Source: a virus. From it: a stretch of 64,000 bases of DNA. The DNA is taken from IMG/VR virus record IMGVR_UViG_3300037010_002844, positions 64,001-128,000 of that record; one strand, given 5' to 3'. The stretch's first letter is position 1. Every line of letters starts with the position of its first letter. A program made the position numbers and the translations under genes. Positions 6,268-51,617 of the stretch are shown in pieces. Under the pieces are notes generated by a model. It did not search any database and had not been told where the DNA came from. It saw only the letters and a list, made by a program, of their open reading frames with translations.

Positions 6268-6344
6268 GACATGAAAGTACTTTAGTACGCCCTCGGTTTA
6301 CACTTAGGCGTGCACCCGCACGATGGAGGGAATAATTACCATGC

Positions 6345-11198: not shown

Positions 11199-11419
11199 GT
11201 GAGCAGGTCCTTCAACAGGTCTTCGATCGCTCCTGCGTTCGGTTCATCAAGCATTGCTTTAGCATACTCTTCTTCAATGTACTCGTCAGTCGGCTGGAGT
11301 TCAACCTTCGTTTCGCTTTTGCGTCGGTAACGTGCCGCGGCCCGTAACAGTTCGATCGGACTCAGACCCATGCGTTGGGCAATGTCATTCAGTGCGATTT
11401 CAAACGGCGGTCTTTTCAT
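11195..11419 (-). CDS. small hypothetical protein (74 aa) between HE4 and the IntC of piece H
   Basis: ORF MKRPPFEIALNDIAQRMGLSPIELLRAAARYRRK...; possibly a helix-turn-helix fragment. Confidence 0.35.
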   Translation of the reverse strand: MKRPPFEIALNDIAQRMGLSPIELLRAAARYRRKSETKVELQPTDEYIEEEYAKAMLDEPNAGAIEDLLKDLLT

Positions 11420-12449
11420 ACGCTTTTCCTATCCGATGAACGCCAGGTCGAGGATCTTTCAGGATCTCAAAAAGCTTTTTCAAGCAATCAGGTTCGAAGC
11501 GACCGCCATCCTTGTATGAGAACTGATCGTAAGAAATTCGAATGAGTGTCCAATCATGTTTAGTGATGTAATCATCAAGCATTGCATCCATGCACTTCAC
11601 TCGTTCAAAATTATCCTCGCCTTTAATACGTGCATTAAAATGGATGATTCCATCAAATTCAACATAAATGTGTCTTGATCGATCGGCAATGTCAACTTGC
11701 TTTCTTTTAGATTTGTTTGGAAAAGCAACTGACTTGACGACCTGATTATGAACAAAATCATAACCTTCAACGTTTTTCAACAAATCAAACAACGCTAATT
11801 CCGGAATGCTATGCCAAATAGCATGTGCAGCTTTTGTGCACTTTTCGTAGAACTCATCGGGGTTCAACTCACGCCAACGGGCCAGGCGCTCAGCACGTGC
11901 CTTGAGTATCTCAGGCCGGGTTGACGTTAGTCTTGCAACGTCTGATGAACGTTTACGGGCTTCAGGTCGTCGATTAAGTTCTCCCATTAGTTCAGAGCGA
12001 CGTTTCCTCTCGCCCGGATTGCTCGTGATGGCCTCACTGACCGCACGGCCCATCTTTTCCTTGTAGGCAGTCAAATCATCACCGCGTGCCTTCGCTCGTT
12101 TGAGCCAGGCGAAATTCTGCCCACGATGCTTGAAACGCGCTGTCGAGACTTTCGATGTGATTGCGGCAGTCGGGTACGCTTTCAGGTATTCTTCTTTGCT
12201 CATACCATGCGTCCCCGACAAGTGCTTTGCCAGTGCCTTACCCGTGAAGCCACAGACTTGGCATGTGACACTCTCACTGTCACCGAGTATGAATCCTTGG
12301 CACCTAGCTTGGTGTTTTTCGTAGGCCTTCAGGTAGACGAAGAGCCTGCTACATCGGTCACAACGATGCTGAGGCCCCGTTCGGCAATCATCCACAGGGG
12401 CAACATCTCGTTTGTCTCCTTCGTCCTGAACTTGTGATCCCACGTGCAC
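11400..12449 (-). CDS. free-standing homing endonuclease HE4, Vsr-like (EDxHD-type) nuclease core
   Basis: C-terminal core RSRHIYVEFDGIIHFN...WTLIRISYDQ (the Vsr-like 'vEfDG..H' motif). The N-terminal Cys/His-rich region has CDRCSRLF and CQVCGF. The annotated start overlaps the IntN of piece G in another frame, so the real start is probably internal. Confidence 0.75.
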   Translation of the reverse strand: MHVGSQVQDEGDKRDVAPVDDCRTGPQHRCDRCSRLFVYLKAYEKHQARCQGFILGDSESVTCQVCGFTGKALAKHLSGTHGMSKEEYLKAYPTAAITSKVSTARFKHRGQNFAWLKRAKARGDDLTAYKEKMGRAVSEAITSNPGERKRRSELMGELNRRPEARKRSSDVARLTSTRPEILKARAERLARWRELNPDEFYEKCTKAAHAIWHSIPELALFDLLKNVEGYDFVHNQVVKSVAFPNKSKRKQVDIADRSRHIYVEFDGIIHFNARIKGEDNFERVKCMDAMLDDYITKHDWTLIRISYDQFSYKDGGRFEPDCLKKLFEILKDPRPGVHRIGKAYEKTAV

Positions 12450-13030
12450 TTTACCTTCTCTCCGGTCACCAACTCCACTTCTACCAAGTCTAGCTCACCG
12501 TGGTCGTGTTTTGCAACAACAGGGACGAGGATGTTTTTACCTGAATTCTCATCACGAGACATGACCAGGTCGCCGGGTTCGATGTGTTGAAGCTGCTTTG
12601 TCTCTTTGAACGTGCCGTCTGAAAAAAAGGTATTTACTGGTTCCGAAAAGTACAAACTTTTATTGAAGCCGTAGCCCGCGAAGTACAGAATCTTGTCGTA
12701 GAGGTTGTTGGCCACCTTCTCGGTATAACCGTTGGCGATGCAACCCTTGACGAACCCGTCACGGGTCTCTTGGGCTGCCTTCTTTGCCGCCTCACCGCCC
12801 GAGATGCTGCGCTTCATGATTGCGCGACGGACCTCGTCACACTTGTCCTTCGGGAAGCCGGCAGCCTTCTCGGCGAGTTCCATCACCTGTTCCTGAAAAA
12901 TTATGCAGTTATGCACGAGAAGGCCATTTGCGAAGAAGTTGTTGTTCTTCTTGACCTGGATGTCGTACACAGGCTGTGCAGGAACACGCTTGATCGCACG
13001 GATCTTGACGGGAACTACGTCAGGCATCAC
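12329..13030 (-). CDS. dnaE: DnaE piece G: IntC (12908..13030) + 83-aa extein (12659..12907) + IntN (12332..12658)
   Basis: IntC ...PVYDIQVKKNNNFFANGLLVHN, then CIIFQEQVMELAEKAAGF...VRRAIMKR...YFAGYGFNK (DnaE: IILYQEQVMQIAQ...LRRAMGKKK...KFAGYGFNK), then IntN SLYFSEPVNTF...TWDHKFRT (blocks A/B). Confidence 0.85.
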   Translation of the reverse strand: MMPDVVPVKIRAIKRVPAQPVYDIQVKKNNNFFANGLLVHNCIIFQEQVMELAEKAAGFPKDKCDEVRRAIMKRSISGGEAAKKAAQETRDGFVKGCIANGYTEKVANNLYDKILYFAGYGFNKSLYFSEPVNTFFSDGTFKETKQLQHIEPGDLVMSRDENSGKNILVPVVAKHDHGELDLVEVELVTGEKVKCTWDHKFRTKETNEMLPLWMIAERGLSIVVTDVAGSSST

Positions 13031-13344
13031 TTACGCTCCGTTTCACGATGAGTCTGACAAACAATGTGTAATGACATTGAGCGCGACAAAGCATCACTGC
13101 CTAGAACGACTCGGCAAGGGTTGAGATTTTCCCCCACATGACGCATCCATTCTTGCAAAGCGTTGATCAATCGTTGGGCTTCGTTGAAACCCTCATGCGA
13201 GGGTGGAAACTGACAGCAACCTACCAAATCTCTAGTCCCAGGATCATATGCAATGATTCGCAAATTCCCATGAACGTTCATCTCTAGCGTTAGAGATCCA
13301 TAAACATCGTCATCGATCTCGCTAGTGTAAAGATCTGCGCTCAT
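13027..13344 (-). CDS. small hypothetical ORF (105 aa) in the F|G inter-fragment spacer
   Basis: Track ORF; no motif. Confidence 0.3.
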   Translation of the reverse strand: MSADLYTSEIDDDVYGSLTLEMNVHGNLRIIAYDPGTRDLVGCCQFPPSHEGFNEAQRLINALQEWMRHVGENLNPCRVVLGSDALSRSMSLHIVCQTHRETERK

Positions 13345-13345
13345 A

Positions 13346-13591
13346 TCATTTTTCTTTCATGTTCAATGATGATGCGCAGAGTTGGCACACTGGTCCATCA
13401 ACACTCAAAACACGTTGACCATGGTATTCGAGCTCCATATCATTTCCGACCTCTTCATAAGCTCGAAATGTGTCGAACCAGTCGGCATACGTGAGATCAT
13501 CACGCTTTCCAAATGCCGTATGTGACTTCATCGTGTTGATAAAGTTCTTGAACGACGTAAGCAACTCCTCTTCAAAATCATCAATCTTCAT
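13346..13591 (-). CDS. small hypothetical ORF (81 aa) in the F|G inter-fragment spacer
   Basis: Track ORF; no motif. Confidence 0.3.
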   Translation of the reverse strand: MKIDDFEEELLTSFKNFINTMKSHTAFGKRDDLTYADWFDTFRAYEEVGNDMELEYHGQRVLSVDGPVCQLCASSLNMKEK

Positions 13592-13662
13592 GTCTAAATT
13601 GTCCTCAATTTGAGGTGATAGTTCAAGGCATCAGACTCCCAGACGCGGTACACCGTGAAGCC

Positions 13663-13830
13663 TCAAGTTCTTGTGGCAAGCGTCCATAATTGATCAAGCC
13701 TAAATTGCTTCTTCATCGCAGGTGTTAGTTCATGCTTCGCTGGGTTACTGTGCCAATAGTCGCCGTCGTACTCGATGATGAGGTTGAGTGATGGCACGAC
13801 GAAGTAGCCTGGTTTCAGTACTTCATTCCC
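13663..13830 (-). pseudogene. truncated Vsr-like homing-endonuclease remnant (nuclease-core fragment only, no start codon)
   Basis: Third-frame translation NEVLKPGYFVVPSLNLIIEYDGDYWHSNPAKHELTPAMKKQFRLDQLWTLATRT* contains the 'IEYDGxYWHS' Vsr-like motif. It overlaps the 3' end of piece F and has no upstream Met. Confidence 0.5.
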
Positions 13831-14414
13831 AAAATCTCGTCTTCAGACGTCAGTTCACCTGCTTGCACCCAACCACGAGGCGTCATGACAAGGTGATCTT
13901 CAGTCAAAGACAAAGTTTCTCCACCCTCCAGCTCAACCTCGATGATGTCACGTACGCCGTTTGAGGCGACAGCGACAACTTCGTCCATCTCGACGGTCTT
14001 CGTCATTTCATTGTATGACGGAAGCTTAGTTCCCACCATTCCTTGTTCAACGATTTGTCTAATGGGAACCTCACCTTGCTCAGTAAGGATATGTGTGTCA
14101 CCCGTCAAACACGAGTATGTCTTCTTCAGGATGTCGTTGACGCGGTGATCGCCCCACTCCAACTCCTTGCCGTCATTCTTCGCCTCCAAGTACAGTCGAT
14201 CGACTTTGGCGGCCAAGGGACCCGGGCGATAGATGCTGGTCAGCGTCGCGATGTCGATGATGCTCTTGGGCTTGCCTTTGACAAAGAGTCGCTGAGCGCC
14301 CTGGCCCGTGCAATTGTGAACAACGACGTCGTTAGCGACGAAATTATGATGATTTCGCACCTCGATGTCGTAGACGTGGCGCTTACCCACGCTGCGTGAT
14401 GACACAAGCTTCAA
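13815..14414 (-). CDS. dnaE: DnaE piece F: IntC (14313..14414) + 67-aa extein (14112..14312) + IntN (13818..14111)
   Basis: IntC MKLVSSRSVGKRHVYDIEVRNHHNFVANDVVVHN; extein CTGQGAQRLF...IATLTSIYRPGPLAA...ILKKTYS (DnaE 'ALFRPGP' and '..TYG' motifs); IntN CLTGDTHILTEQG...SLTEDHLVMT. Confidence 0.85.
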   Translation of the reverse strand: MKLVSSRSVGKRHVYDIEVRNHHNFVANDVVVHNCTGQGAQRLFVKGKPKSIIDIATLTSIYRPGPLAAKVDRLYLEAKNDGKELEWGDHRVNDILKKTYSCLTGDTHILTEQGEVPIRQIVEQGMVGTKLPSYNEMTKTVEMDEVVAVASNGVRDIIEVELEGGETLSLTEDHLVMTPRGWVQAGELTSEDEILGMKY

Positions 14415-15171
14415 GCGTCGTCTCCTTCTTTTCTAGCAACTGTAGGTCATATCCACTGACAAGTGCACACTTGAGCGTCGGATGCAACGTTACGAATGCG
14501 TCAAACTTCTCCCTAGCATCATCACGCCACCAGCCCTTGACTTCCACGTACACCCGCTTAAAGAGCTCCAACGTCGGTCATTGACGATGGAAGATCATGT
14601 ACGCCTCTCTTGTGAGCTGGATCCTGATCTCCTCCTCGCTGAAGCCCTCGTCCATGCAATGACGCCAGTTGTCATACAGGTCGACGACGCCATTCTTTCC
14701 GTTCCCGTTGCCCGCTGAGTGCAGAAAGTACAAAGGGGCGCTACGATGAGCGGAGCGCGTCCGTACAATCACATGTTGCGGAGTCGTGGGCCTGTTGCGT
14801 CTCTGTAAGGCGACATGGCCACGGTCGCGGCGAAACCTGCGACCAAAACGCCCGCCTCACGTCAATCCACGAGCTTCGTAACCACTGCTAGACCCAATCA
14901 ACTCGTCGTCTTCGGTTAGGTGCTGTGCCTCAACCCACCCGCGATTCTTCGTCAAGATGGGATGATCAGCGGTGCAGACAAGCTTCTTGCCGTCGTCGAA
15001 CACGAGCTCGATGCACTCCTTGGGTCCTTGGTCGTAAACGACGTCGACGACTGATGTGGTGAACTGCTGCTTGACTTCATCGAAGACCGTCACCTCGTCA
15101 CCGACATGGACGTCCTTGATCAACTTGTACGAGTCATCGCCCATCAGCACTGCCGTGTCCTGGTCGACGCA
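14313..15171 (-). mobile_element. split-intein site 5 (E|F): IntN 14860..15171, decayed mini-nuclease gene 14383..14772, IntC 14313..14414
   Basis: As above; the intervening nuclease gene carries an in-frame stop. Confidence 0.7.
14383..14772 (-). pseudogene. mini PD-(D/E)XK nuclease gene (paralog of 23817..24137 and of the HE1 C-terminus) interrupted by one in-frame TGA at 14578..14580
   Basis: Track ORFs 14578..14772 and 14383..14571 are in the same frame, separated by a single TGA. The joined product ...YMIFHRQ*PTLELFKRVYVEVKGWWRDDAREKF aligns with the paralog ...HQIFVHDESVYYEIKGRWSDKACY, which has no stop at that position. Confidence 0.5.
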
Positions 15172-15333
15172 CTGGAAGATGCCTGCCCACTTGCCTTTCT
15201 CGTAGACCTCGTAAGGTTTGGGATCGGTGAAATCAATGACGGCCGGGTGCATGTGCTGCTCGAACCAGGTCTTGATGTCATTGAATGATACCGCATTTGT
15301 ATGTGCGTCAACGTTAGCAACGACTTTTGCCAT
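14857..15333 (-). CDS. dnaE: DnaE piece E: 54-aa extein (15172..15333) + IntN (14860..15171)
   Basis: Extein ...VIDFTDPKPYEVYEKGKWAGIFQ (DnaE 'IPLDD...TAVFQ'); IntN CVDQDTAVLMGDD...CTADHPILTKNRGWVEAQHLTEDDELIG. The first 13 aa, MAKVVANVDAHTN, resemble a vestigial block G. Confidence 0.8.
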   Translation of the reverse strand: MAKVVANVDAHTNAVSFNDIKTWFEQHMHPAVIDFTDPKPYEVYEKGKWAGIFQCVDQDTAVLMGDDSYKLIKDVHVGDEVTVFDEVKQQFTTSVVDVVYDQGPKECIELVFDDGKKLVCTADHPILTKNRGWVEAQHLTEDDELIGSSSGYEARGLT

Positions 15334-17116
15334 GTCTTTGTAAAGGTACTTTCACAGGTCCATAACGTACACCGCGTTGGAGCAACCAAAGATCTTAAAA
15401 AGCCTGTGTTCCATCGCCATCTCTTCTTGTGATGCGATCCCCGGAATCGCCCTGACAGCAAATCTATCGATACGATTTTGTCCGTCCGTCCACCAAAACC
15501 TAGGCTGCGTCATGTGATCAAATCTAAAACCAGATAGTTCATACGCCCGGCCAGTGCCACCCAACCTCATGTCACGGTATGTGATCATTTTTTGGTAACC
15601 ATGCTCACGTGACCAATCCCTGGCAGCGTTGATCAACCGCGACATGCCTCCAACGACGATGGTATCGCGGGCCGTTGAAACCCGCGCCAATTCAATTGTC
15701 TTAGATCCCCACTTAGTCTGCTGGTGCGGTTTTCGCAATGTCAATGCACAAATAATGTTTCCAGCAATGTCCTCTAGCCAGAACGAATGCGACGAAGGAG
15801 TGTTTCCATCGAGGTGATTGTTCGCCATGAACTGAGCGGTGATGGCTGGACGACCGCTGCGAAGATGTAGCTTTCGTGCCATCACGCGAGTAGCAAGACC
15901 AAGCTTTACCCTGATCATGCTTTTGATGATGTTTTTCTTTACATCATGGTGCCATTCATCGTCGAAGATATGTAGCAACGACACACCACGCTCAAGAGCG
16001 CGAGTCGACTTGTCTTGGTGATACGATGGTGGAGTACCGGTCGCCTCACTGTGCCAATAGACACCGTTGCACTCGATGGCAATCCTTCCGTTACCTGACA
16101 CGATGTCCAGCTCATAAGGCGCGATTGACTGTCTGTCGTTGGCGATGGCGTTCGAATCGAGCTTGACGAAGAAATCGAACACCTCACGATGCCAGCGAGA
16201 GAAATTAGCCGGGTAGCACGTTGAACACACCTTTCCCTTGTAAAGGACGTTAAAGGGAACAATATCAGGTACGTTACAACTGACGCATGTCACATGCACC
16301 GGTGTTGAGTATCCAGCAAACTCAAATTTTTCGATGTTCCACCTCGACCGCAGTGCATCAACTCGCCGTTCGACCTCTTCGAGAGACAACCGAAAAGGAG
16401 AGTTAGTGCCGTTCTCGATAAGGCGTTTTCTAGTCTCGATGATCGAACGTTTGATATCTTCAGAATTAGCGTTCCGAGACCAATGATTCAAGCGAACGCC
16501 TTCGCCGATCCGTTCTGATCGCCGTTTGATCCTATCGTCAGTTTCTGACGTCTGACCGTGCTGCGTCCAGTGTTTTTCTACTTGCCATTTTTCAGTCAAT
16601 GCTCGAGAGATGTTATGCGCAGCTCTTGTGATAGATTCATTATTTTCTTTAGTTTGTCCTGTTCTCCAGTGCCCGTGTTTTTTGATGAAATCACGACAAC
16701 CTTGTGCGGCCCTTCGAACCGATTCAGACGTTGTTTCTGACAGCCCCTTGTTCCATGCAGGCAATGATTTTGATTTCCGGCTAAGCGCACCTCTTACTTG
16801 AGAGTTCTTCTTGCTACAAACTCCACAGAGACGTTCATATCCCGTTTGAAAGGTCATGAACTTGACCGGCCCTGAACACTGAACGCACGGTCCAGGGTGC
16901 TCTCGAAAAAGAAGGTACGCAGCCTCCGCATTGAGCCCGTGCTTTTTAAGGAGATGTGCGCGGAGCGAATTTAGGCTAGCTTTTCGCAATGGATCATTGC
17001 ACTGTGGGCACCTCGAAGGACACGATGTCATCGCCGGGCCCGAGCTCCCTCGCAAGGATGGTGCCCCTGTTGCTGGTGACGATTCGTTGGTCGCCGTAGA
17101 CGCCTCGTGTCGTTCC
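15295..17116 (-). mobile_element. split site 4 (D|E): HE3 insertion with no intact intein; Hint-N-like tail on D and a vestigial block-G-like head (MAKVVANVDAHTN) on E
   Basis: The D tail GTTRGVYGDQRIVTSNRGTILARELGPGDDIVSF lacks Cys1 and block B; the E head ends ..HTN|A, with no nucleophile. Confidence 0.45.
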
Positions 17117-17151
17117 ATCGTCGAGTTGGATCTCAAACCACCCTCTTTCAT
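15352..17151 (-). CDS. free-standing homing endonuclease HE3: Zn-finger + NUMOD3 repeats + Vsr-like nuclease + conserved C-terminal domain
   Basis: C2H2-like CPQCNDPLRKASLNSLRAHLLKKH. NUMOD3-like repeats (...SETDDRIKRRSERIGE...). Nuclease core GRIAIECNGVYWHSE. The C-terminal ~200 aa (ARKLHL...HLDGN...VVGGMSRL...RFWWTD...DRF) is shared with HE2. The annotated N-terminus overlaps piece D, so the real start is likely internal (~17118). Confidence 0.8.
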   Translation of the reverse strand: MKEGGLRSNSTMERHEASTATNESSPATGAPSLRGSSGPAMTSCPSRCPQCNDPLRKASLNSLRAHLLKKHGLNAEAAYLLFREHPGPCVQCSGPVKFMTFQTGYERLCGVCSKKNSQVRGALSRKSKSLPAWNKGLSETTSESVRRAAQGCRDFIKKHGHWRTGQTKENNESITRAAHNISRALTEKWQVEKHWTQHGQTSETDDRIKRRSERIGEGVRLNHWSRNANSEDIKRSIIETRKRLIENGTNSPFRLSLEEVERRVDALRSRWNIEKFEFAGYSTPVHVTCVSCNVPDIVPFNVLYKGKVCSTCYPANFSRWHREVFDFFVKLDSNAIANDRQSIAPYELDIVSGNGRIAIECNGVYWHSEATGTPPSYHQDKSTRALERGVSLLHIFDDEWHHDVKKNIIKSMIRVKLGLATRVMARKLHLRSGRPAITAQFMANNHLDGNTPSSHSFWLEDIAGNIICALTLRKPHQQTKWGSKTIELARVSTARDTIVVGGMSRLINAARDWSREHGYQKMITYRDMRLGGTGRAYELSGFRFDHMTQPRFWWTDGQNRIDRFAVRAIPGIASQEEMAMEHRLFKIFGCSNAVYVMDL

Positions 17152-17851
17152 GTCGTTCCTTTTTGATGATGAGCTCGATGGCGCGCTCGATGAGCCGCAT
17201 CGTTTCTAGACCTAGGAGGTCGTACTTGATGAACTCTCCGATCTTCTCAAGGTGTTTATAATTTACGCCCTCGACCCAAGGTGACTGTGGCTCGCGGACG
17301 CCGGCCTTGCCTTTGGACGTCACCAAAGGCATCTTGTTGGGCAAATCGTCTGCAATCAGCACACCACCCGCGTGACGACCGAGACTACGATTCTGCTTGA
17401 AGAGGATCTTGATCGACTCGGCGACGACCGGGTACTTCTCAATGAAGCCGCGAAACGACGGGCTGACCGGCTGCTTACACTCTGGGCTACAGCCCTGGCA
17501 GATGGACTTCGACTCCGGGCCCTTAGGAGCCCTGCAGTGGAAGGCCATGGCCTCATCGTAGGTCAAGACGAACAGATTCTTGTCGTCGCCTTCCTTCATC
17601 GTCGCCTTACGGACCTCGTCCTCGACGGTCCGCGTGGCAGCGTTGGTCTCCTCGAATGGGATGCCGTAGAACTTGCCGATATCCTTTACAAGCGTTTTTA
17701 GTTTGAAACAGTTATAATTGCTGATGGGAACGACGTTTTCCCACCCAAAAAAGTTTCGAAGTTCATCAAGAACCTCATCTCGCCTGGCAAGATCGGTGTT
17801 GTGAACAACGACGCTCTTGTTGGACGCCAAAAATGAATGAACGACCATCAC
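16994..17851 (-). CDS. dnaE: DnaE piece D: 18-aa IntC-like head (17798..17851) + core extein; the ~40-aa C-terminal tail is non-DnaE-like (Hint-N-like, no Cys1)
   Basis: MMVVHSFLASNKSVVVHN|TDLARRDEVLDELRNFFGWENVVPISNYNCFKLKTLVKDIGKFYGIPFEE (DnaE: RRDEVIDYV..YG.D.VAQI.TFGTM.AKAAIRDVGRVLG.PY) ... GRHAGGVLIADD...YDLLGLETMRLIERAIELI (DnaE: KHAGGVVI...FDFLGLRTLTII). Confidence 0.85.
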   Translation of the reverse strand: MMVVHSFLASNKSVVVHNTDLARRDEVLDELRNFFGWENVVPISNYNCFKLKTLVKDIGKFYGIPFEETNAATRTVEDEVRKATMKEGDDKNLFVLTYDEAMAFHCRAPKGPESKSICQGCSPECKQPVSPSFRGFIEKYPVVAESIKILFKQNRSLGRHAGGVLIADDLPNKMPLVTSKGKAGVREPQSPWVEGVNYKHLEKIGEFIKYDLLGLETMRLIERAIELIIKKERHERGWFEIQLDDGTTRGVYGDQRIVTSNRGTILARELGPGDDIVSFEVPTVQ

Positions 17852-20436
17852 ATGAATCCTAACTCAACTACAGTTGAATTTACATGCGCTCGTTGTGGTC
17901 GAAACCACGAAACGCTACGAGCATTGAAGATCCACGAGGCACGACACAGGCGAGAAGACGCCAGGCCTCCCAAACAGGTGTCAACTTACGCGTGTCCGTG
18001 GTGTGAGGCGTCATATGACAGCGGGCGTAAGTTGACATTGCACTGCACAAAAACGCACCAAAAATCACCCGTCGTTGTGTATGAAACAAGGTACCCAGGG
18101 TGCAGGAAGACGTGCATCGATTGTTGCGACTGGGTCAGGTTCATCGATCAAGAAAAAGGATACCCCGAACGGTGTCCACGTTGTAGCCGAAAACACGCAT
18201 ACGCGTCCAAGGGCACCTCGTCATGGAACAAAGGCCTGACGAAAGACAATGACGAACGCATGTCAGCCAGTGCTGCAAACATGCGAGCTCACTACAAGGA
18301 ACACGGTCACCACAACTCCGACAAGACAAAGGAAAACAACGAAAGCCTTAAACAAAAGGCGGCAAAAATCAGCGACAGCCTGCGGAGGTATTATGCAACG
18401 CACAGCGGCTGGTCACTTGGCCTGACAAAGGATACGTCTAGCATCATTGAATCTCGCAGTAAGAAGATCAGCGCTTCGTTGAAAGGACGATTCTTTAGCG
18501 ACGTAACGCTTGAAAAAATGCGCAAGGCAAAGTTGCTGACGCACGACGAGGTACAAAAACGCCTCAAAGAAAAGCAGCTTAAACTCATTGACGAATATGT
18601 CGATACTGTCACCAAAGCGCGCATCGAATGCACGATATGTTCAACAATATTTGAGCGTTGCGTTGGCGCAGTGTTCAACAACGAGGCCAAGTGTCCCACC
18701 TGCTTTCCGCCTTGGTCAGACAAAACGAGCAGGTGGCAACAGGACGTCTACGCATTTATCCAGACGCTGGCACCTGACGCAGTCCTTAGCGATCGTAAGA
18801 CGCTCGGCGGAATGGAGCTCGACATACTCATTCCATCGCGCATGTTTGCCATCGAGTGCAATGGCCTATACTGGCACAGCGAGGCCGCCAATAGATTTGA
18901 GCACGATCACGCGGAAAAGAAGAGATTGCTGTCCCTCAAAGCCGGCGTATCGCTTTTCACGTTATTTGAGGATGAGTGGCGCGACAAACGACCGATAATC
19001 GAAAGCATGTTGCGCCATCGCCTTGGGTTTTCTACCAAAGTCGATGCGCGTAAGTTGAAAGCAGAACGCTGCGAGCCCGAAGAAGTTCGAGAATTCATCA
19101 ATCAGTGCCACCTCGACGGTCACGTGAGGGCCCAATTTGCCGTGCGATTGGTAACCTCATCGGGCGAAATCGTAGGCGCCTGCAGCCTTAGGTGGGCACG
19201 AAATGGGGCAGACAGAACGACGATTGAGATCGCTCGCCTGTGCTTCAAGCTTGGCACACATGTACGAGGCGGGGTGTCAAAATTGCTATCAAAGGCAAAA
19301 GCTATAGCAAGAGAAAACAATGCAGCGAGGTTGATGTCTTACTCAGACAATCGCTTGGGAGGAAACGGTTATGCCACCTCAGGCATGAAGTTCAACGGTA
19401 CCACAGTCGCTCGCTTCTGGTGGACTGACTTCATGCATCGTTACGACAGGTTCAAGTACCGAGCCAACAAGAAGCAAGGTCTAACAGAAAAACAGGTAGC
19501 GGAGGCTGCCGGCGTTTATCGCATCTATGGCTGTAGCAACTCTCGCTACGTCTTAGACGTCACAGCGTGACGCTAATGTCATCGTCAAACTTTGAGGACG
19601 CATTTTCTTTGAGCCAGAAGATGGCGTCAATTGTGCGCTCGTCGGCGTCGGCGTCATCGCACGACGTAGCCCCATAGTATGGGGGCCAAATCGTGCTCAA
19701 ACCCTTTAACGCGCAGTTTGACCTGACAATCTTGAAATTCAGGATTTTCTGCAGCTCTCGTCTGAGCTATTCTTTCCAGGCCAGACACTATCACATCATC
19801 TGCTCGGCAGAATCGCCGTTGTCTGTAAGCTGCACCGCATCAACGTTGCTCGGACACGGTCCCAACTCCAGCTCAAATTTCATAGTTGCGCTCGCTGTGG
19901 TCTGTTCTTCTCTTAGACGCGCACCAATCGCTGCAAAAATTGTCTCCTTCGCCACACGCAAGGAACGTGCCAGGAATGACGCCCATGCAATAACCGACGT
20001 CATGTGATGGATCACCTCCACTTAGAATGGACGTATTGAACGGTACCACGTGGAATCTGTGATCGTCTTCAACAGTCAGGTCGACGTATCTAGCGTTGGA
20101 AGAGCCCCAACCACCGTGCTCGATCGATACGACCTCAACGCTGCCGCATGATGCCATCAATTCATCTCCGACCTTAAGGTCGCGGCAGTACACGATGACG
20201 CCGTCAGCTCTGACAAATTTGTGACCGGGCACCACCAAAATGTGGCCCAACGTACCATCATTGGCCCTAACTCTGACCCAGACAGCGTCCTCGAATGGCC
20301 GCAAATTTCTAGCATAGGTCGCAGTTACTGCGTGTGGCATTCCATCGCCTCCCAGGACGACGTCGCCGACAATGATGTCAACAGCTCGCTTATGAGTGCC
20401 GTCTGTCATGACGACAAGATGGTCCTCGTGGACGCA
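17798..20436 (-). mobile_element. split-intein site 3 (C|D): long IntN with blocks A/B/F (19876..20436), HE2 on the opposite strand (17837..19570), 18-aa IntC carrying block G only (17798..17851)
   Basis: The IntN tail ...YVDLTVEDDHRFHV plus the IntC head SFLASNKSVVVHN|T together reconstruct a contiguous F-G block (compare HNFVANDVVVHN of piece F). Confidence 0.55.
17837..19570 (+). CDS. free-standing homing endonuclease HE2 (opposite strand to dnaE): Zn-finger + NUMOD3 repeats + Vsr-like nuclease + conserved C-terminal domain
   Basis: CARCGRNHETLRALKIHEARH; NUMOD3 repeats (WNKGLTKDNDERMSASAANMRAHYKEHGHHNSDKTKENNESLKQKAAKISDSL...); nuclease core RMFAIECNGLYWHSE; C-terminal domain homologous to that of HE3 (ARKLKA...HLDGH...VRGGVSKL...RFWWTD...DRF). 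Confidence 0.8.
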   Translation: MNDHHMNPNSTTVEFTCARCGRNHETLRALKIHEARHRREDARPPKQVSTYACPWCEASYDSGRKLTLHCTKTHQKSPVVVYETRYPGCRKTCIDCCDWVRFIDQEKGYPERCPRCSRKHAYASKGTSSWNKGLTKDNDERMSASAANMRAHYKEHGHHNSDKTKENNESLKQKAAKISDSLRRYYATHSGWSLGLTKDTSSIIESRSKKISASLKGRFFSDVTLEKMRKAKLLTHDEVQKRLKEKQLKLIDEYVDTVTKARIECTICSTIFERCVGAVFNNEAKCPTCFPPWSDKTSRWQQDVYAFIQTLAPDAVLSDRKTLGGMELDILIPSRMFAIECNGLYWHSEAANRFEHDHAEKKRLLSLKAGVSLFTLFEDEWRDKRPIIESMLRHRLGFSTKVDARKLKAERCEPEEVREFINQCHLDGHVRAQFAVRLVTSSGEIVGACSLRWARNGADRTTIEIARLCFKLGTHVRGGVSKLLSKAKAIARENNAARLMSYSDNRLGGNGYATSGMKFNGTTVARFWWTDFMHRYDRFKYRANKKQGLTEKQVAEAAGVYRIYGCSNSRYVLDVTA

Positions 20437-20610
20437 GTCGATATCAGGAGCACCAGAGTTATGTGTCAGCACCCAATCGCTATCGTTGTTGGACACCCAA
20501 AACGTATGCTGGCCTTCGACCTCGATGTCGATGAGTTCTACACTTTCATCGACAACCTCGATAGCTTCAATTTTGGCCGTGCTTGCTGATGAGATGTTGG
20601 GTTCCTGCAT
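19873..20610 (-). CDS. dnaE: DnaE piece C: IntC (20458..20610) + 7-aa extein SGAPDID (20437..20457) + long IntN carrying blocks A, B and F (19876..20436)
   Basis: IntC ...ELIDIEVEGQHTFWVSNNDSDWVLTHN; extein SGAPDID (DnaE 'SMPDIDIDF'); then CVHEDHLVVMTDG...GDVVL (block A), TLGHILVVPGHKF (B), ARYVDLTVEDDHRFHV (F-like), then a ~55-aa tail. Confidence 0.75.
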   Translation of the reverse strand: MQEPNISSASTAKIEAIEVVDESVELIDIEVEGQHTFWVSNNDSDWVLTHNSGAPDIDCVHEDHLVVMTDGTHKRAVDIIVGDVVLGGDGMPHAVTATYARNLRPFEDAVWVRVRANDGTLGHILVVPGHKFVRADGVIVYCRDLKVGDELMASCGSVEVVSIEHGGWGSSNARYVDLTVEDDHRFHVVPFNTSILSGGDPSHDVGYCMGVIPGTFLACGEGDNFCSDWCASKRRTDHSERNYEI

Positions 20611-21788
20611 AGTCCCTGTGCTCTAGATTGGCAATCGTATGGTACAAACCTTGTCGACGAAGTTCACCATAGAAGTCATTCATGTACACGACGTCGATGC
20701 GCTGACCAGACGCCACAACGACTTCCCGTGAACGTGCGTTTGAGTTAAGCAACTTTGAGAAACGCGATTTGCCTTCTCGCACACCTTTCAACTCCACGTA
20801 TCGGTCCTCATCACTGAACCAAAAGTCTGGAGTGTAACACTTCTCTTTGCCATCGATGACAACATGGAAAGACCTATGTTCATAGAATGGCATCTTACCG
20901 AGGTGCAAGCAATATCTGTAGTAGTCGGCTTCGAACGAGCTCTTGAAGTACGGGCTGTTTAGGATGTCGGAACGAAAACACGAGCGTCCGTTCACATGTG
21001 AAGCAACCATATCACGTGACTGTGCCTCGCGGGTGCACCGTTTGGAACAGAACCGCGGCACGTAGCTCTTCTTGGTGACGATCGGTTCGCTACAAACTTC
21101 GCATACCAACGTGTGGCGGTCAAACCTCGATGCAGCGAAACATTTGGGTGAACAGAACCTGCGATTGACGTTCTTCGTTGAGAAAGTGCCTAGACACTGT
21201 ACACATGTCAGTGTACGGAGCTCATTCTTTGTCAGCGCTTTCGCAGTGTACTTGTGCCTGCACGCATTCGAACATAGTTTTCTGTTGTTGTGACACTTTG
21301 GAACGTAGAACTCATCGCCGTACTCGACGCACGTCTTCACAAGCCTCGAGGGCATGGGAGCGTGTGACATCAGCTTCCTGTGAGCGACGGCACACTCATC
21401 AGTGCAGTACGGGCGATGGAGCCTACTACCAGAACCCTTGCAGTTGGGCTCATAGTTGAACTGAAACATAATACCACAGTGTTTACACTGTTTCTCAATG
21501 ATGCTCATAGTGGTACGTGTACAGCTCGTCACTCGTCGACAGCTCAGATGTATACTTCTTCACAGGTTGTCCATCAGGACCCACTGTCAACCACACATGA
21601 TTTTCAGAACACGTGAACGTAGTACCATTCACCTTCACGCGGTACGTCTTCTCATGTTTTGTGGTCATGGTGAACGTAACTTTACGGTGTGAGCCATCCT
21701 GTGAGACAACGCTGTCACCGACTTTCACGTCTCGAAGCGCGGACGACGAACCATCTGACATCAATACCTTTGTGTCTGGCGACAGACA
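20458..21788 (-). mobile_element. split-intein site 2 (B|C): IntN 21498..21788, HE1 20567..21532, IntC 20458..20610
   Basis: As above; the HE gene overlaps both intein halves in other frames. Confidence 0.75.
20567..21532 (-). CDS. free-standing homing endonuclease HE1: tandem zinc-ribbon array + C-terminal mini PD-(D/E)XK nuclease
   Basis: At least six CxxC pairs ([40 protein letters not shown]). C-terminus [37 protein letters not shown] is a D...E.K nuclease motif shared with ORFs 23817..24137 and 14383..14772. Both gene ends overlap the intein halves of pieces B and C. Confidence 0.65.
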
Positions 21789-21992
21789 CCTGTGAACGCT
21801 AAGGAATCGCGCGAAAGGCAGGTCCCAGAACAACGGGTCCAAGTCGGTGATGTATAGGACGTAGGCGACCAGAGAGCCACCGCCCGAATTGTGGACTGCA
21901 ATACCTTCCACGTTGTAAGTGTGGCTGTTTTCCACACACAGGTCTACGACCTCACCCTTATACGGTACGACAGTCTTACTTCTGAGCTTCAT
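21495..21992 (-). CDS. dnaE: DnaE piece B: IntC (21888..21992) + 33-aa extein (21789..21887) + IntN (21498..21788)
   Basis: Int[36 protein letters not shown]; extein [33 protein letters not shown] (DnaE: GSGAGSLVAYALGITDIDPL.YDLLFERFLNPER); Int[14 protein letters not shown]...CSENHVWLT. Confidence 0.85.
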
Positions 21993-23816: not shown

Positions 23817-24137
23817 TCATTTACCTTCCCACCTTACCTTGTCACGGTACTGTAGACCCAATTGACGGTACTGGACACCGTCAATGACCACGATAGTCAC
23901 TTCAGGAAACTTGATTCGCATCAGTGCAAGCTGATAGCACGCCTTGTCAGACCACCTTCCCTTAATTTCGTAGTACACGCTTTCATCGTGAACGAAAATC
24001 TGGTGTGTACCAAGCCGGCCATGTCGGCGATCTGCGGCAACGTGGCCATACCAATGGGTATCAGCACGCGGAGCCACTTGGGCAGCTTGTTCCAGGTGGG
24101 CTTCAGCTGGGTGACGAGCTATGAAACAACGATGCAA
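23817..24137 (-). CDS. mini PD-(D/E)XK nuclease-like protein (106 aa), intact paralog of 14383..14772 and of the HE1 C-terminus
   Basis: ...HQIFVHDESVYYEIKGRWSDKACYQLALM; D..(Y)YE(I)KG motif. Confidence 0.5.
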   Translation of the reverse strand: MHRCFIARHPAEAHLEQAAQVAPRADTHWYGHVAADRRHGRLGTHQIFVHDESVYYEIKGRWSDKACYQLALMRIKFPEVTIVVIDGVQYRQLGLQYRDKVRWEGK

Positions 24138-50600: not shown

Positions 50601-51617
50601 ATGCCTACCAAGATCGTCATACCGCCAGAGAACATCAATGAGATGCGTAATTTGTTCTGTTCTGGCGCCAGCATCCCAGAGCTCATGCTAAAGTACGGTC
50701 TCTCACGGAACAAGGTCACTGCTACCCTTCAAAACGCTCTGGGCGAGGAATACACGACATATGCTCAGAAGATCATCGCCGGTTGTGCTGTAAAATCTGC
50801 TGACAAACGGCGTGGGCGCAAACAAAACCGAACTCCGAAGTGGAACGCTAAAATCGCTGATGCAAATCGAGGAAAGAAACGATTAGAAGAGACAAAAGCT
50901 AAGATCAGCGAAGCATCACGCACACGCTTCGAGCGTGGCACCTGGTCGAAAGAAAAACACATTGAGGCTATGAAGAAGGCCGTACAAACCAAGCGTAAGA
51001 ACGGCTACTTTCAGTTTCATTCACAGCGTCATTCTGAGTAGACGAAGGAACACACACCGATGCGTGGTAAGAAAATGTCAGATGAGGCGTGGCAAAAGAT
51101 GCGTAAAGCAAAAACGCTTTTTTGAACTGGGTGGTGAGCCCTCGCACTTAGATCGCATCATTCCTGCACATGAATGTCAAAAACATAGTGAAAATACCAA
51201 GCGCATGTGTGCAAATGGCAAATTTTCATACGGCGACGGTTCTGTAATGCGTAGTAAGCTCGAAAAACGTATCTACGATCAAGCGCTCACCGTCTTTCCA
51301 GACGCTCAACACTCACGTTGGCTCACTGTCAATGACACCACGTACGTCTTCGACATCTTCATCCCATCGATCAAGACGTTCATCGAAGTCAATGGGAACT
51401 ATTGGCACCTTAACTCACGGATCTACGAGGCCACACACACCACGACGCATACCGTGATGTGATGGCTTCAGAGATCTGGGAACGAGACGCTGTAAAACGT
51501 CACGTCGCTGAATCTCAAGGCTATCGTGTCATCAATCTTCCACTGCAGCCTGACGTCCATCCGTCACTGCCTCCCCGTGCTACCGAAGCCGCCCTGTCCG
51601 CGATCAGTCAACGATAG
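50601..51617 (+). pseudogene. Vsr-like/NUMOD3 homing endonuclease broken by one in-frame TAG (51039) and two frameshifts (~51105-51125 at an A5..T6 run; ~51460)
   Basis: Frame 0: MPTKIV...NUMOD3 (LEETKAKISEASR; SKEKHIEAMKKAV)...HSE*TKEHTPMRGKKMSDEAWQKMRKAKTLF*. Frame +1: ...TYVFDIFIPSIKTFIEVNGNYWHLN... (Vsr core). Frame 0 again: MASEIWERDAVKRHVAESQGYRVINL... (Vsr-like C-terminus). Confidence 0.6.

What the first reader, a model, noticed from the sequence alone, without database searches (positions are those of the whole stretch)
11400..21532. Two HE families populate the split sites: Vsr-like 'ECNGxYWH' enzymes with NUMOD3 repeats and a shared unknown ~200-aa C-terminal domain, and zinc-ribbon/mini-PD-(D/E)XK enzymes
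HE2, HE3, HE4, the remnant at 13663..13830 and the broken gene at 50601..51617 all carry the Vsr-like core: (I/V)(A/I)IE(C/Y/F)(N/D)G.YWH(S/L). This is the EDxHD lineage described for the Vsr-related fractured-gene HEs and for I-Bth0305I.

HE2 and HE3 add C2H2-like fingers, 3-5 NUMOD3 units, and a C-terminal domain conserved between them. Its motifs are ARKL..., N.xHLDG, (V/R)GG(M/V)S(R/K)L, RLGG.G.A, RFWWTD, DRF. I cannot assign this domain to a family; it could be a second DNA-binding or target-recognition module.

HE1 instead carries at least six CxxC zinc ribbons plus a ~45-aa D...(Y)(V/Y)E(L/I/V)KG nuclease motif. That motif also forms two stand-alone mini-ORFs (23817..24137 intact; 14383..14772 with a TGA).
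Basis: partly seen in the sequence, partly recalled or inferred. Interest (0 to 1): 0.6.

Follow-up and report, generated by a model that had tools for sequence, protein, structure and literature searches.

The report
Homing nucleases in a fractured dnaE
The selfish nuclease genes wedged between the pieces of this phage's split DNA polymerase gene are real; the 'unknown' tail on two of them is a Mom-type DNA-modifying enzyme domain, and a third belongs to an apparently undescribed homing lineage built on a T7 endonuclease I-like core.

Summary
The Vsr-like core occurs five times in the window: HE2, HE3, HE4, a stop-interrupted remnant and a frameshifted gene near 51 kb. A profile of it finds I-Bth0305I as its best solved relative (E=1.3e-6).

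The 'unknown' C-terminal 180 aa of HE2 and HE3 is a GNAT-fold domain of the phage Mu Mom family:
- A profile of the domain matches GCN5 at E=1.9e-7.
- The residues essential in Mom are nearly invariant across 215 relatives.

HE2 and HE3 have the architecture annotated 'Hef-like homing endonuclease' in hundreds of cultured phages. Mom domains fused to restriction-type nucleases were already noted in jumbo phages in 2021, so this part is known.

HE1 carries four Cys4 zinc modules and a T7 endonuclease I-like nuclease with the full catalytic tetrad. All six family members examined sit in the same dnaE split intein. I found no published intein-associated endonuclease of this type.

The two mini-ORFs are T7 endonuclease I-like relics that lack the catalytic Asp.

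Whether the Mom-like domain modifies DNA, for example to protect the element's own genome, is inferred and untested.

The parts
17837..19570 (+). HE3: a 577-aa Hef-like homing endonuclease gene, antisense to dnaE, lying between dnaE pieces 19873-20610 and 16994-17851.
   Evidence: ORF. Full-length match to phrog_3339 'homing endonuclease', E=3.5e-59. 116 homologue clusters. AF2 model with mean pLDDT 90.9. A 40%-identical homologue, P0015, is also antisense between dnaE pieces.
17879..18703 (+). HE3 N-terminal DNA-binding region. It holds two C2H2-like fingers (aa 17-37 and 53-74), a CxxC...CxxC ribbon (aa 93-116), three NUMOD3-like 'GxTK(D/E)' helical units (aa 129-215) and a second ribbon (aa 265-289).
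   Evidence: Motif scan. Helices in the AF2 model. Cys residues near-invariant in the family. Pfam's NUMOD3 model does not detect it.
18725..19033 (+). HE3 Vsr-like (EDxHD) nuclease domain, aa 297-399. Catalytic residues D329, E340, H347 and D379.
   Evidence: HMM hit, E=4e-43. Family profile finds I-Bth0305I (3R3P) at E=1.3e-6. Invariant columns.
19034..19561 (+). HE3 Mom-family GNAT domain, aa 400-575. Mom-equivalent residues are H425, R467, S481, D504, R506 and Y512.
15352..17151 (-). HE2: a 599-aa ORF with the same architecture as HE3 (33% identical), lying between dnaE pieces 16994-17851 and 14857-15333. The true start is probably near aa 33-41, which would give a 40-60 nt overlap with the upstream piece, as in its L002 orthologue.
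   Evidence: ORF. phrog_3339, E=1e-59. The L002 orthologue (5821-7527) sits at the same dnaE position.
15892..16200 (-). HE2 Vsr-like nuclease domain, aa 318-420.
   Evidence: HMM hit, E=8e-39. Alignment.
15358..15903 (-). HE2 Mom-family GNAT domain, aa 417-598.
   Evidence: HMM hit, E=4e-63. Weak Pfam Mom and Acetyltransf_1 hits. phrog_1384, E=2e-6. NCBIfam XF1762, E=5e-7.
11400..12449 (-). HE4: a 349-aa Vsr-like homing endonuclease without a Mom domain. It has a ROS/MucR-type zinc finger (aa 58-101, nt 12147-12278) and a nuclease domain (aa 227-329, nt 11463-11771). It lies between dnaE pieces 12329-13030 and 10068-11198.
   Evidence: Pfam ROS_MUCR scores 27.7 bits against a cut-off of 25.4. 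phrog_559, E=9e-8. 74 homologue clusters, some named 'very-short-patch-repair endonuclease'. P0286 and P0302 also lie between the dnaE finger piece and the C-terminal HHH_6 piece.
20567..21532 (-). HE1: a 321-aa protein with four Cys4 zinc modules (aa 9-177, nt 21002-21508) and a T7 endonuclease I-like PD-(D/E)XK nuclease (aa 178-320, nt 20573-21001; E200, D235, E246, K248). It lies inside the split intein between dnaE pieces 21495-21992 and 19873-20610 and overlaps them by 38 and 44 nt.
   Evidence: Family alignment A4. Profile finds T7 endonuclease I (1M0D) at E=2.6e-5. AF2 model with pLDDT 86. Foldseek's best hit is 3R3P, E=0.018. All 6 family members examined are in the same split intein.
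13666..13842 (-). Remnant of a Vsr-like HE core ('LIIEYDGDYWHS...') with an in-frame stop, in the split site between dnaE pieces 13815-14414 and 12329-13030.
   Evidence: Translation. HMM hit, E=5e-6.
14383..14772 (-). Mini-ORF 2: a decayed T7 endonuclease I-like gene. It has a TGA stop and the catalytic 'PD' has become 'PT'. It occupies the split site between dnaE pieces 14857-15333 and 13815-14414.
   Evidence: Translation. blastp against T7 endonuclease I gives 34% identity over 44 aa, pairwise E=1.7e-5. phrog_945, E=0.005, and Pfam Phage_endo_I, E=0.16.
23817..24137 (-). Mini-ORF 1: an intact 106-aa ORF just upstream of dnaE piece 1. It has a T7 endonuclease I-like 'YYEIKGRW' segment, but 'PD' has become 'QI', so it is probably a dead relic.
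   Evidence: blastp against T7 endonuclease I, E=0.004, and against mini-ORF 2, E=0.002. No Pfam or PHROG hit. A similar relic lies just upstream of dnaE in L005.
50601..51617 (+). A broken free-standing Vsr-like HE gene between the flap endonuclease and dUTPase genes. Its N-terminal part is ORF 50601-51041, the core 'FIEVNGNYWHL' is in ORF 51064-51462, and a stop and a frameshift follow.
   Evidence: HMM hit, E=4e-5. phrog_559 and phrog_3339 hits.

Best explanation
The region is a phage dnaE (Pol III alpha) gene, probably from a jumbo phage, broken into eight pieces. The split sites are occupied by selfish homing-endonuclease genes of two unrelated nuclease lineages, at different stages of decay.

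Lineage 1: Vsr-like EDxHD enzymes (HE2, HE3, HE4, one remnant, and one broken free-standing copy at 51 kb). Their N-terminal zinc fingers and NUMOD3-like helices read a long target. The Vsr-like domain cuts it, probably as a dimer as in I-Bth0305I.

HE2 and HE3 belong to the 'Hef-like' sub-lineage. This sub-lineage carries an extra C-terminal GNAT domain of the phage Mu Mom family, with Mom's active-site residues conserved. I infer that this domain is a working DNA-directed acyl or aminoacyl transferase. By analogy with Mom it would act on adenine N6, possibly using aminoacyl-tRNA. Its most likely role is to modify the element's own genome at or near the nuclease's recognition sequence. A free-standing endonuclease whose insertion does not destroy its target would then not cut its own genome.

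Lineage 2: HE1. Four Cys4 zinc modules bind DNA. A T7 endonuclease I-like PD-(D/E)XK domain with an intact E/D/E/K tetrad cuts it. This family is dedicated to one split intein in dnaE.

The two mini-ORFs are dead relics of T7 endonuclease I-like genes.

Shown: domain identities, residue conservation, and conservation of the sites across phages. Inferred: cleavage activity, catalytic activity of the Mom-like domain, its substrate, and the self-immunity role.
For: Vsr-like core:
- A profile of it finds I-Bth0305I at E=1.3e-6. The catalytic D/E/H/D residues are invariant.

Mom-like domain:
- Foldseek's top PDB hit is Mu Mom, 8BV8, at E=7.4e-7.
- A profile of the domain finds GCN5 at E=1.9e-7.
- 12 of 34 relatives hit Pfam Mom, best E=7.8e-9. 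phrog_1384 'Mom-like' scores 1e-10.
- hhalign to Mu Mom aligns H58, R111, S124, D149, R151 and Y159. Those positions are essential or important in Mom (PMC13219725; PMC7261163).
- Across 215 relatives those positions read: R 215/215, D 213, R 204, Y 203, H 214, and S 135 versus G 69. R101/R111 is Mom-specific and not general to GNATs.

Same architecture in cultured phages:
- 414 phage records match; those listed are annotated 'Hef-like homing endonuclease', other endonuclease names, or 'hypothetical protein'.
- The PA5oct protein has both domains.

Homing behaviour:
- The HE2 orthologue is at the same dnaE site in L002.
- An HE3-like gene lies antisense in dnaE in L007.
- HE4 relatives sit between the dnaE finger piece and the C-terminal HHH_6 piece, as HE4 does.
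- Other relatives are free-standing among structural genes.
- Decayed copies in the window fit the homing-endonuclease life cycle.

HE1:
- A profile finds T7 endonuclease I at E=2.6e-5, with E20, D55, E65 and K67 aligned and invariant.
- All 6 members examined (31-52% identical) sit in the same split intein...RF(L/M)xxxR|C... and ...THN|(S/C)xxPD(I/V)D.
Against: - No activity has been measured for any of these proteins.
- HE2 and HE3 themselves do not reach Pfam's gathering score for Mom. HE2 scores 12 bits against a cut-off of 27.1; HE3 has no hit.
- hhalign probability against the single Mom sequence is only 26%.
- The position equivalent to Mom's essential S124 is Gly in about a third of the family. 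The dimer-interface W48 is not conserved.
- Nothing in the sequence shows which donor (tRNA or CoA) or which acceptor the domain uses.
- The self-immunity idea has no direct support here. HE4 and the original fractured-gene Vsr-like enzymes manage without such a domain.
- The window's HE1 has Tyr in place of a near-invariant zinc-binding Cys, so it may be impaired.
- HE1 falls below Pfam's Phage_endo_I cut-off, 12.1 bits against 29.1.
Confidence: 0.7

Rival explanations
1. HE2 and HE3 are not homing elements. They are single-chain restriction-modification-like conflict systems, as Iyer et al. proposed for jumbo-phage Mom-REase fusions. The Mom domain modifies adenines across the whole phage genome. 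The nuclease domain destroys unmodified host or competitor DNA.
For: The published prediction is in PMC7824862. The window comes from a contig of at least 309 kb. The Mom active-site residues are conserved.
Against: There are two copies only 33% identical within 4 kb, and 10-12 places matching HE3 per Campylobacter phage genome. The copies occupy split sites of dnaE, at positions that recur in related phages: the same site for the HE2 orthologue, and between dnaE pieces for the HE3-like gene. Decayed copies sit nearby. Long modular DNA-binding arms are typical of homing endonucleases. This pattern fits site-specific selfish elements better than a genome-wide system. The two readings are not fully exclusive.
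Confidence: 0.2
2. The Mom-like domain is catalytically inert. It serves as a DNA-binding, base-flipping or dimerisation module that extends target recognition.
For: The S124-equivalent position is Gly in 69 of 215 relatives. Mom itself binds dsDNA and dimerises. HE2 and HE3 fall below Pfam's Mom threshold. Enzyme folds are sometimes recruited as binding modules.
Against: The charged and polar residues that line Mom's active site, including the Mom-specific Arg, are near-invariant across sequences that are otherwise only 33-60% identical to HE3. That pattern is hard to explain by binding alone.
Confidence: 0.2
3. HE1 and the mini-ORFs are ordinary phage Holliday-junction resolvase genes (T7 gene 3-like) that happen to lie near dnaE. 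They are not homing endonucleases.
For: The nearest sequence relative is T7 endonuclease I, a junction-resolving enzyme. phrog_9019 'Holliday junction resolvase' gives a weak hit.
Against: All six HE1-family genes examined, down to 31% identity, lie inside the same split intein of dnaE and overlap both flanking pieces. HE1 has a 170-aa four-module zinc DNA-binding region that T7 endonuclease I lacks. The mini-ORFs lack the catalytic Asp, and one has a stop codon.
Confidence: 0.05

Closest known systems
Vsr-like / EDxHD homing endonucleases of fractured genes (Dassa et al. 2009, PMC2677866) and I-Bth0305I (Taylor et al. 2011, PMC3239194; PDB 3R3P)
   Same: Same catalytic domain and conserved E/D/H/D residues. 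DNA-binding modules lie N-terminal to the nuclease. The genes sit between the two halves of split inteins in phage DNA-replication genes, including dnaE. HE4 fits this description fully.
   Different: HE2 and HE3 carry an extra 180-aa Mom-like domain after the nuclease, which neither paper mentions. HE3 is antisense to its host gene, whereas Dassa's loci are all co-directional. HE1 overlaps its flanking dnaE pieces instead of being separated from them by 27-51 nt spacers. Eight pieces in one gene is far more than the single fractures described there.
Hef (phage U5) and 'Hef-like homing endonucleases' annotated in cultured phages (PA5oct gp196, Campylobacter phages, LIMEstone; phrog_3339 and phrog_559)
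   Same: HE2 and HE3 match phrog_3339 end to end (E about 1e-59). The PA5oct protein has the same Vsr-like plus Mom-like domain pair. Many copies occur per genome.
   Different: The cultured-phage copies inspected are free-standing between structural genes (PMC3296691). HE2 and HE3 sit in split sites of an essential gene. I could not read the original Hef paper, so what it reports about the domains is unknown to me.
Phage Mu Mom (PDB 8BV8; Silva et al. 2026, PMC13219725; Karambelkar et al. 2020, PMC7261163)
   Same: GNAT fold. Best Foldseek hit. The equivalents of H58, R111, S124, D149, R151 and Y159 are conserved. A C-terminal extension follows the GNAT core.
   Different: About 17-20% identity. 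The domain is fused to a nuclease rather than stand-alone. There is no com-type translational control. The W48 dimer contact is not conserved. The S124-equivalent position varies across the family. The donor and acceptor are unknown.
Mom-REase fusions of jumbo phages (Iyer et al. 2021, PMC7824862)
   Same: Apparently the same type of domain fusion, in large phages.
   Different: That paper reads it as a restriction-modification-like weapon. It does not connect it to Vsr-like or Hef homing endonucleases or to split inteins. Here the genomic behaviour is that of homing elements.
T7 endonuclease I (gene 3; PDB 1M0D; Pfam PF05367)
   Same: HE1 shares the 'FxSxxE...YTPDF...VExKG' core with all four catalytic residues. 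The mini-ORFs share the 'VExKGxW...HP' segment.
   Different: HE1 adds four Cys4 zinc modules and is tied to one intein site. T7 endonuclease I is a stand-alone, structure-specific junction resolvase. HE1 falls below Pfam's threshold. The Foldseek match to the T7 enzyme is absent, possibly because that enzyme is a domain-swapped dimer (my inference).

Membership tests
EDxHD (Vsr-like) homing endonucleases | Vsr-like PD-(D/E)XK catalytic domain recognisable by sequence | tested here: met
   A profile of 20 nuclease domains finds 3R3P (I-Bth0305I) at E=1.3e-6, with no other credible hit. Weak Pfam REase_MTES_1575 hits.
EDxHD (Vsr-like) homing endonucleases | Conserved catalytic Asp, Glu, His and Asp | tested here: met
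   D329, E340, H347 and D379 (HE3 numbering) are invariant in 73 sequences. They are present in HE2 and HE4. HE4 has one residue fewer before the His.
EDxHD (Vsr-like) homing endonucleases | NUMOD-type DNA-binding motifs N-terminal to the nuclease | tested here: inconclusive
   Pfam NUMOD3 is not detected in HE2, HE3 or HE4 at E<=10. Three to four repeated helical 'GxTKE' units are visible. PF07460 is precomputed on 8 homologues.
EDxHD (Vsr-like) homing endonucleases | Nuclease is the C-terminal domain (architecture in Taylor et al. 2011) | tested here: not met
   Met for HE4. HE2 and HE3 have a further 180-aa domain after the nuclease. They are therefore a distinct architectural sub-lineage.
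EDxHD (Vsr-like) homing endonucleases | Gene occupies an intron, intein or fractured-gene site that is conserved among relatives | tested here: met
   The HE2 orthologue is at the same site in L002. An HE3-like gene lies in dnaE in L007. HE4 relatives lie between the dnaE finger and HHH_6 pieces.
EDxHD (Vsr-like) homing endonucleases | Site-specific double-strand cleavage of the allele that lacks the element | not testable with these tools
   Needs purified protein and a target DNA.
Hef-like homing endonucleases (phrog_3339) | End-to-end similarity to the family profile | tested here: met
   HE2 scores 1e-59 over aa 83-597. HE3 scores 3.5e-59 over aa 72-574. The PA5oct 'Hef-like' protein has both domains.
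[quoted passage not shown] | GNAT fold | tested here: met
[quoted passage not shown] | Closer to Mom than to other GNATs | tested here: inconclusive
[quoted passage not shown] | Mom-specific active-site Arg (R101/R111), not shared by other GNATs | tested here: met
   It aligns with the R of 'EIAR'. That position is R in 215 of 215 family domains. Its Mom specificity is stated in PMC7261163.
[quoted passage not shown] | Other residues needed for Mom activity (H58, S124, D149, R151, Y159) | tested here: met
   All are present in HE2 and HE3. Family frequencies are H 214, D 213, R 204 and Y 203 of 215. The S position is S in 135 and G in 69.
[quoted passage not shown] | HTH-like insertion required for activity | tested here: inconclusive
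   HE3 has a conserved C-terminal extension (RFWWTD...DRF...TExQVAxEAGV) with one helix and several strands. Its equivalence to Mom residues 175-209 is not established.
[quoted passage not shown] | Gly-tRNA(Gly)-dependent modification of adenine N6 in dsDNA | not testable with these tools
   Biochemical property (PMC13219725).
T7 endonuclease I family (Pfam PF05367), for HE1 | Catalytic E20, D55, E65 and K67 | tested here: met
   E200, D235, E246 and K248 are invariant in 20 HE1-family sequences and align with the T7 residues.
T7 endonuclease I family (Pfam PF05367), for HE1 | Score above Pfam's gathering threshold | tested here: not met
   12.1 bits against a cut-off of 29.1. Three homologues carry precomputed PF05367 hits. 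A family profile finds 1M0D at E=2.6e-5.
T7 endonuclease I family (Pfam PF05367), for the mini-ORFs | Catalytic tetrad intact | tested here: not met
   The catalytic Asp is replaced (QI in mini-ORF 1, PT in mini-ORF 2). Mini-ORF 2 also has an in-frame TGA.
T7 endonuclease I family (Pfam PF05367), for HE1 | Domain-swapped dimer that resolves four-way junctions | not testable with these tools
   Needs structure or biochemistry. Only a monomer model was made.

The most novel reading that the evidence does not exclude
Hef-like homing endonucleases are self-contained 'cut-and-protect' selfish elements. The fused Mom-like domain installs a bulky adenine modification, possibly aminoacyl-tRNA-derived, at the nuclease's own recognition sites in the resident genome. 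This gives a free-standing endonuclease immunity to itself. It would be the first homing endonuclease with built-in target protection. It would also extend tRNA-dependent DNA modification to thousands of phage proteins. In addition, HE1 would define a new homing-endonuclease family with a T7 endonuclease I-type core.
Probability: 0.25. Interest if true: 0.8.

Novelty: new variant of a known kind. Interest (0 to 1): 0.5.

Why it matters
The Vsr-like enzymes and the fractured-gene arrangement are known, and so is the Mom-nuclease fusion. What appears not to have been said is that these are the same thing.

The 'Hef-like homing endonucleases' in hundreds of cultured phages, and about 5,000 representative clusters in metagenomes, carry a Mom-type domain with its active site conserved. 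They behave as site-specific homing elements.

Mom's chemistry (glycyl-tRNA to adenine N6) was solved in 2026. That makes a concrete question testable: do some homing endonucleases chemically mark DNA, and does the mark protect their own genome?

HE1 offers a compact, zinc-module-guided nuclease with a strictly conserved natural target. It may be a new homing-endonuclease class. Such enzymes are of interest for intein biology and as programmable or rare-cutting nucleases.

Tried and rejected
- Single-sequence searches of HE3 and HE1 against PDB sequences gave only zinc-finger noise or nothing. Profiles were needed.
- Pfam did not detect NUMOD3 in the N-terminal arms, even at E<=10. I therefore call the repeats NUMOD3-like only.
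- The HE1-family HMM does not recover the mini-ORFs. I dropped the idea that they are HE1-family fragments. They are better described as T7 endonuclease I-like relics.
- Foldseek with the HE1 model did not return T7 endonuclease I. The best hit was I-Bth0305I at E=0.018. This supports a restriction-endonuclease-like fold but not the specific family.
There is no support for that.
- I looked for tRNA genes that a Mom-like enzyme might use. The window has none.
- The original Hef paper and Iyer et al. 2009 could not be read.
- A literature search for T7 endonuclease I-type homing endonucleases found nothing relevant. Absence from this library is not proof of novelty.

Full report
**Context**

The window looks like part of a large phage genome. 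Genes for a DnaB-like helicase, a flap endonuclease, a dUTPase and a UvsX/RecA-like protein lie at 48-53 kb. Proteins identical to HE3, HE1 and HE4 are on JGI contigs of about 309 kb.

Between 10.0 and 23.8 kb the minus strand carries a dnaE (Pol III alpha) gene in eight pieces:
- 22077-23762
- 21495-21992
- 19873-20610
- 16994-17851
- 14857-15333
- 13815-14414
- 12329-13030
- 10068-11198

I compared these with less-fractured dnaE genes in related contigs (L002, L005). Most junctions are split inteins: an N-half after the upstream extein, and a C-half ending in HN or SN before the downstream extein.

**Check of the observation**

I built HMMs from homologue alignments and scanned every stop-to-stop segment of all six frames. 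The Vsr-like core occurs five times:
- HE3, HE2 and HE4.
- A 59-codon remnant at 13666-13842, with an in-frame stop just after the core.
- A gene at 50.6-51.6 kb broken by a stop and a frameshift.

The shared C-terminal domain occurs only in HE2 and HE3. The two copies are 36% identical.

Three details of the description need correction:
- HE1 has four Cys4 modules, not six ribbons.
- The NUMOD3 label is not confirmed by Pfam on these proteins. The repeats are visible and helical.
- The mini-ORFs do not belong to the HE1 family by HMM.

**The Vsr-like core**

A profile of 20 nuclease domains finds the catalytic domain of I-Bth0305I (3R3P) at E=1.3e-6, and nothing else credible. In a 73-sequence full-length alignment the invariant columns are D329, E340, H347, K362, D379 and W381 (HE3 numbering). 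These include the Asp/Glu/His/Asp set described for the EDxHD family (PMC3239194; PMC2677866).

HE4 lacks any C-terminal extension. It has a ROS/MucR-type zinc finger above Pfam's threshold. It belongs to a 74-cluster family, some members of which JGI names 'very-short-patch-repair endonuclease'. HE4 is the classical fractured-gene Vsr-like enzyme.

**The 'unknown' C-terminal domain**

Every line of evidence points to the GNAT superfamily, and within it to the Mom family.

Profile libraries:
- Single-sequence Pfam gives weak Acetyltransf_1 and Mom hits.
- PHROGs gives 'Mom-like DNA modification protein' at 1e-10 for HE3.
- NCBIfam gives the XF1762 family.
- A 34-sequence profile of the domain finds Tetrahymena GCN5 at E=1.9e-7. 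The family's invariant Glu aligns with the Glu of GCN5's 'AEVAFLAV' segment, and 'VxGGxSKL' aligns with 'VRGYGTRL', which from my own knowledge is the CoA-binding motif A.
- 12 of the 34 relatives individually hit Pfam Mom, best E=7.8e-9.

Structure:
- The AF2 model of full-length HE3 is confident, with mean pLDDT 90.9 and blocks from residue 301 to 570 mostly above 94.
- Foldseek against the PDB ranks the crystal structure of Mu Mom (8BV8) first, at E=7.4e-7.

Active-site residues:
- I fetched the Mu mom gene and aligned it to the profile.
- HE3 H425, R467, S481, D504, R506 and Y512 fall on Mom H58, R111, S124, D149, R151 and Y159. These are the residues shown to be essential or important (PMC13219725; the same residues are numbered 10 lower in PMC7261163).
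- Among 215 family domains those positions are H 214, R 215, S 135 / G 69, D 213, R 204 and Y 203.
- The Arg is reported to be conserved among Mom homologues but not among GNATs in general.

I therefore assign the domain to the Mom family. Two caveats apply: HE2 and HE3 themselves are below Pfam's curated Mom cut-off, and the Ser is not universal.

**How much of this is already known**

HE2 and HE3 match phrog_3339 ('homing endonuclease') end to end at about 1e-59. tblastn finds 414 phage records, many annotated 'Hef-like homing endonuclease', and the matches run through the C-terminal domain. The PA5oct protein of that name has both domains.

Iyer et al. [quoted passage not shown] They proposed a restriction-modification-like role. 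They do not mention Vsr, homing endonucleases or inteins.

The fractured-gene and I-Bth0305I papers do not mention a GNAT or Mom domain. The 2026 Mom paper does not mention nuclease fusions.

So the domain fusion is known. Linking it to Hef-like and EDxHD homing endonucleases and to split-intein sites seems not to have been spelled out in the literature I could read.

**Evidence for homing behaviour**

- L002, a related 180-kb contig, has an HE2 orthologue at the same dnaE position.
- L007 has a 40%-identical HE3 relative that is also antisense between dnaE pieces.
- HE4 relatives at 55% and 44% identity lie between the dnaE finger piece and the C-terminal HHH_6 piece, as HE4 does.
- More distant HE3 relatives are free-standing near baseplate and sheath genes.
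- Different phages carry different subsets of these insertions. L005 has one split, L002 three, and the window seven. Decayed copies lie in two of the window's split sites.

This is the presence/absence and decay pattern expected of homing elements. An antisense Vsr-like endonuclease inside inteins was reported recently in actinobacteriophages (bioRxiv 10.1101/2025.01.02.630785), so HE3's orientation has a precedent.

**HE1**

The 20-sequence family alignment shows four repeats of CxxC...CSxxC, followed by 'FKSSFEAD...YTPDF...ELKG'. A profile of it finds T7 endonuclease I (1M0D, 2PFJ, 1FZR) at E=2.6e-5 to 2.4e-4. The alignment passes through E20, D55, E65 and K67.

The AF2 model has pLDDT 86. 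Foldseek returns only weak hits to restriction-endonuclease-like folds. The best is I-Bth0305I at E=0.018, followed by viral PA-type endonucleases, TnsA and RecE; the YacG zinc finger also appears, presumably matching the zinc modules.

All six family members I located, at 31-52% identity, sit in the same split intein. They follow '...RF(L/M)xxxR|C...', precede '...THN|(S/C)xxPD(I/V)D', are on the same strand, and have ORF ends that overlap both dnaE pieces.

That strict site association, together with the added DNA-binding region, argues that HE1 is a homing endonuclease and not a junction resolvase. [quoted passage not shown] A literature search found none. The window's copy has Tyr at the near-invariant Cys70 and may be slightly impaired.

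**Mini-ORFs**

By pairwise blastp, both mini-ORFs resemble T7 endonuclease I more than they resemble HE1. Mini-ORF 2 scores 1.7e-5 and mini-ORF 1 scores 0.004 against the T7 enzyme. The two score 0.002 against each other. Against HE1 they score 1.1 and 0.07 respectively.

Both have lost the catalytic Asp, and mini-ORF 2 has a TGA. Mini-ORF 2 fills the split site between pieces 5 and 6, so it is best read as the wreck of that site's former endonuclease. Mini-ORF 1 lies just upstream of dnaE. A similar relic lies in the same place in the distant contig L005.

**Mechanism**

Shown:
- The modular anatomy.
- Conserved catalytic residues in both nuclease lineages and in the Mom-like domain.
- Site fidelity across phages.

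Inferred:
- The zinc fingers and NUMOD3-like helices read a long asymmetric site, and the Vsr-like domain dimerises to cut it. This is by analogy with I-Bth0305I.
- The Mom-like domain transfers an acyl or aminoacyl group to DNA.

The cut-and-protect reading (self-immunity) appeals because free-standing endonuclease genes do not necessarily destroy their own target on insertion. It is a hypothesis only. The restriction-modification-like reading of Iyer et al. and an inert binding-module reading remain open.

**Verdict**

The main unknown is resolved to a known family. The finding is moderately interesting for two reasons. First, a very large and routinely annotated class of phage homing endonucleases carries a conserved Mom-type enzyme domain whose role is untested. 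Second, HE1 appears to be an undescribed homing lineage with a strictly conserved natural target.

Noticed in passing
window 16994-17851 and 19873-20610 (minus strand): The intein that HE3 interrupts seems to be split between splicing blocks F and G. The upstream piece carries about 187 aa of intein ('CVHEDHLVVMTDG...YVDLTVEDDHRF...'). The downstream piece begins with only 18 aa ('MMVVHSFLASNKSVVVHN|T'). The extein between this intein and the previous one is just 'SGAPDID'. As far as I know, such a short natural C-intein is unusual.
   Followed up: partly
window 16994-17060 and 15290-15333; L002 5730-5864 and 7539-7580: The split site that holds HE2 has no Cys or Ser at the intein +1 position ('...KERHERGWFEIQLDDGTTR...'). 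The downstream piece starts 'MAKVVANVDAHTNAV'. The same holds in L002. These look like degenerate intein halves that cannot splice. This part of dnaE may assemble non-covalently, as described for the split NrdA of phage Aeh1.
   Followed up: partly
window 21993-22076: The first split (pieces 22077-23762 and 21495-21992) has canonical split-intein halves but only an 84-nt spacer and no endonuclease gene. In L011 the equivalent site holds a 345-aa ORF with a weak Tn7 TnsA-like N-terminal nuclease hit, which would be a third PD-(D/E)XK type.
   Followed up: partly
window 13027-13591 (minus strand): Two small intact ORFs (105 and 81 aa) share the split site with the Vsr-like remnant. Their function is unknown and I did not search them.
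   Followed up: no
window 12329-13030 and 10068-11198 (minus strand): The intein at the HE4 site appears to start with Ser ('GYGFNK|SLYFSEPV...') and to end '...ILTSN|S', without the usual penultimate His.
   Followed up: no
window 20567-20610 and 21495-21532; L005 4001-4041 and 4929-4969: HE1-family ORFs overlap both flanking dnaE pieces by about 40 nt in every contig examined. This suggests translational coupling. Dassa et al. described 27-51 nt non-coding spacers instead.
   Followed up: partly
window 17837-19570, 20567-21532 and 11400-12449: The public gene calls for the identical proteins start later than the ORFs (436 vs 577 aa, 300 vs 321 aa, 267 vs 349 aa). Homologues align over the full N-terminal zinc-finger regions, so the longer ORFs are probably right.
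   Followed up: partly
L008 1133-2791 and 3501-5171; L009 1120-2823 and 3501-5144: In two contigs, two genes of about 550 codons lie head-to-head about 700 bp apart, next to T4-type baseplate genes. One of each pair is the Hef-like HE3 homologue; the other has no Pfam hit and I did not compare it with HE3.
   Followed up: no
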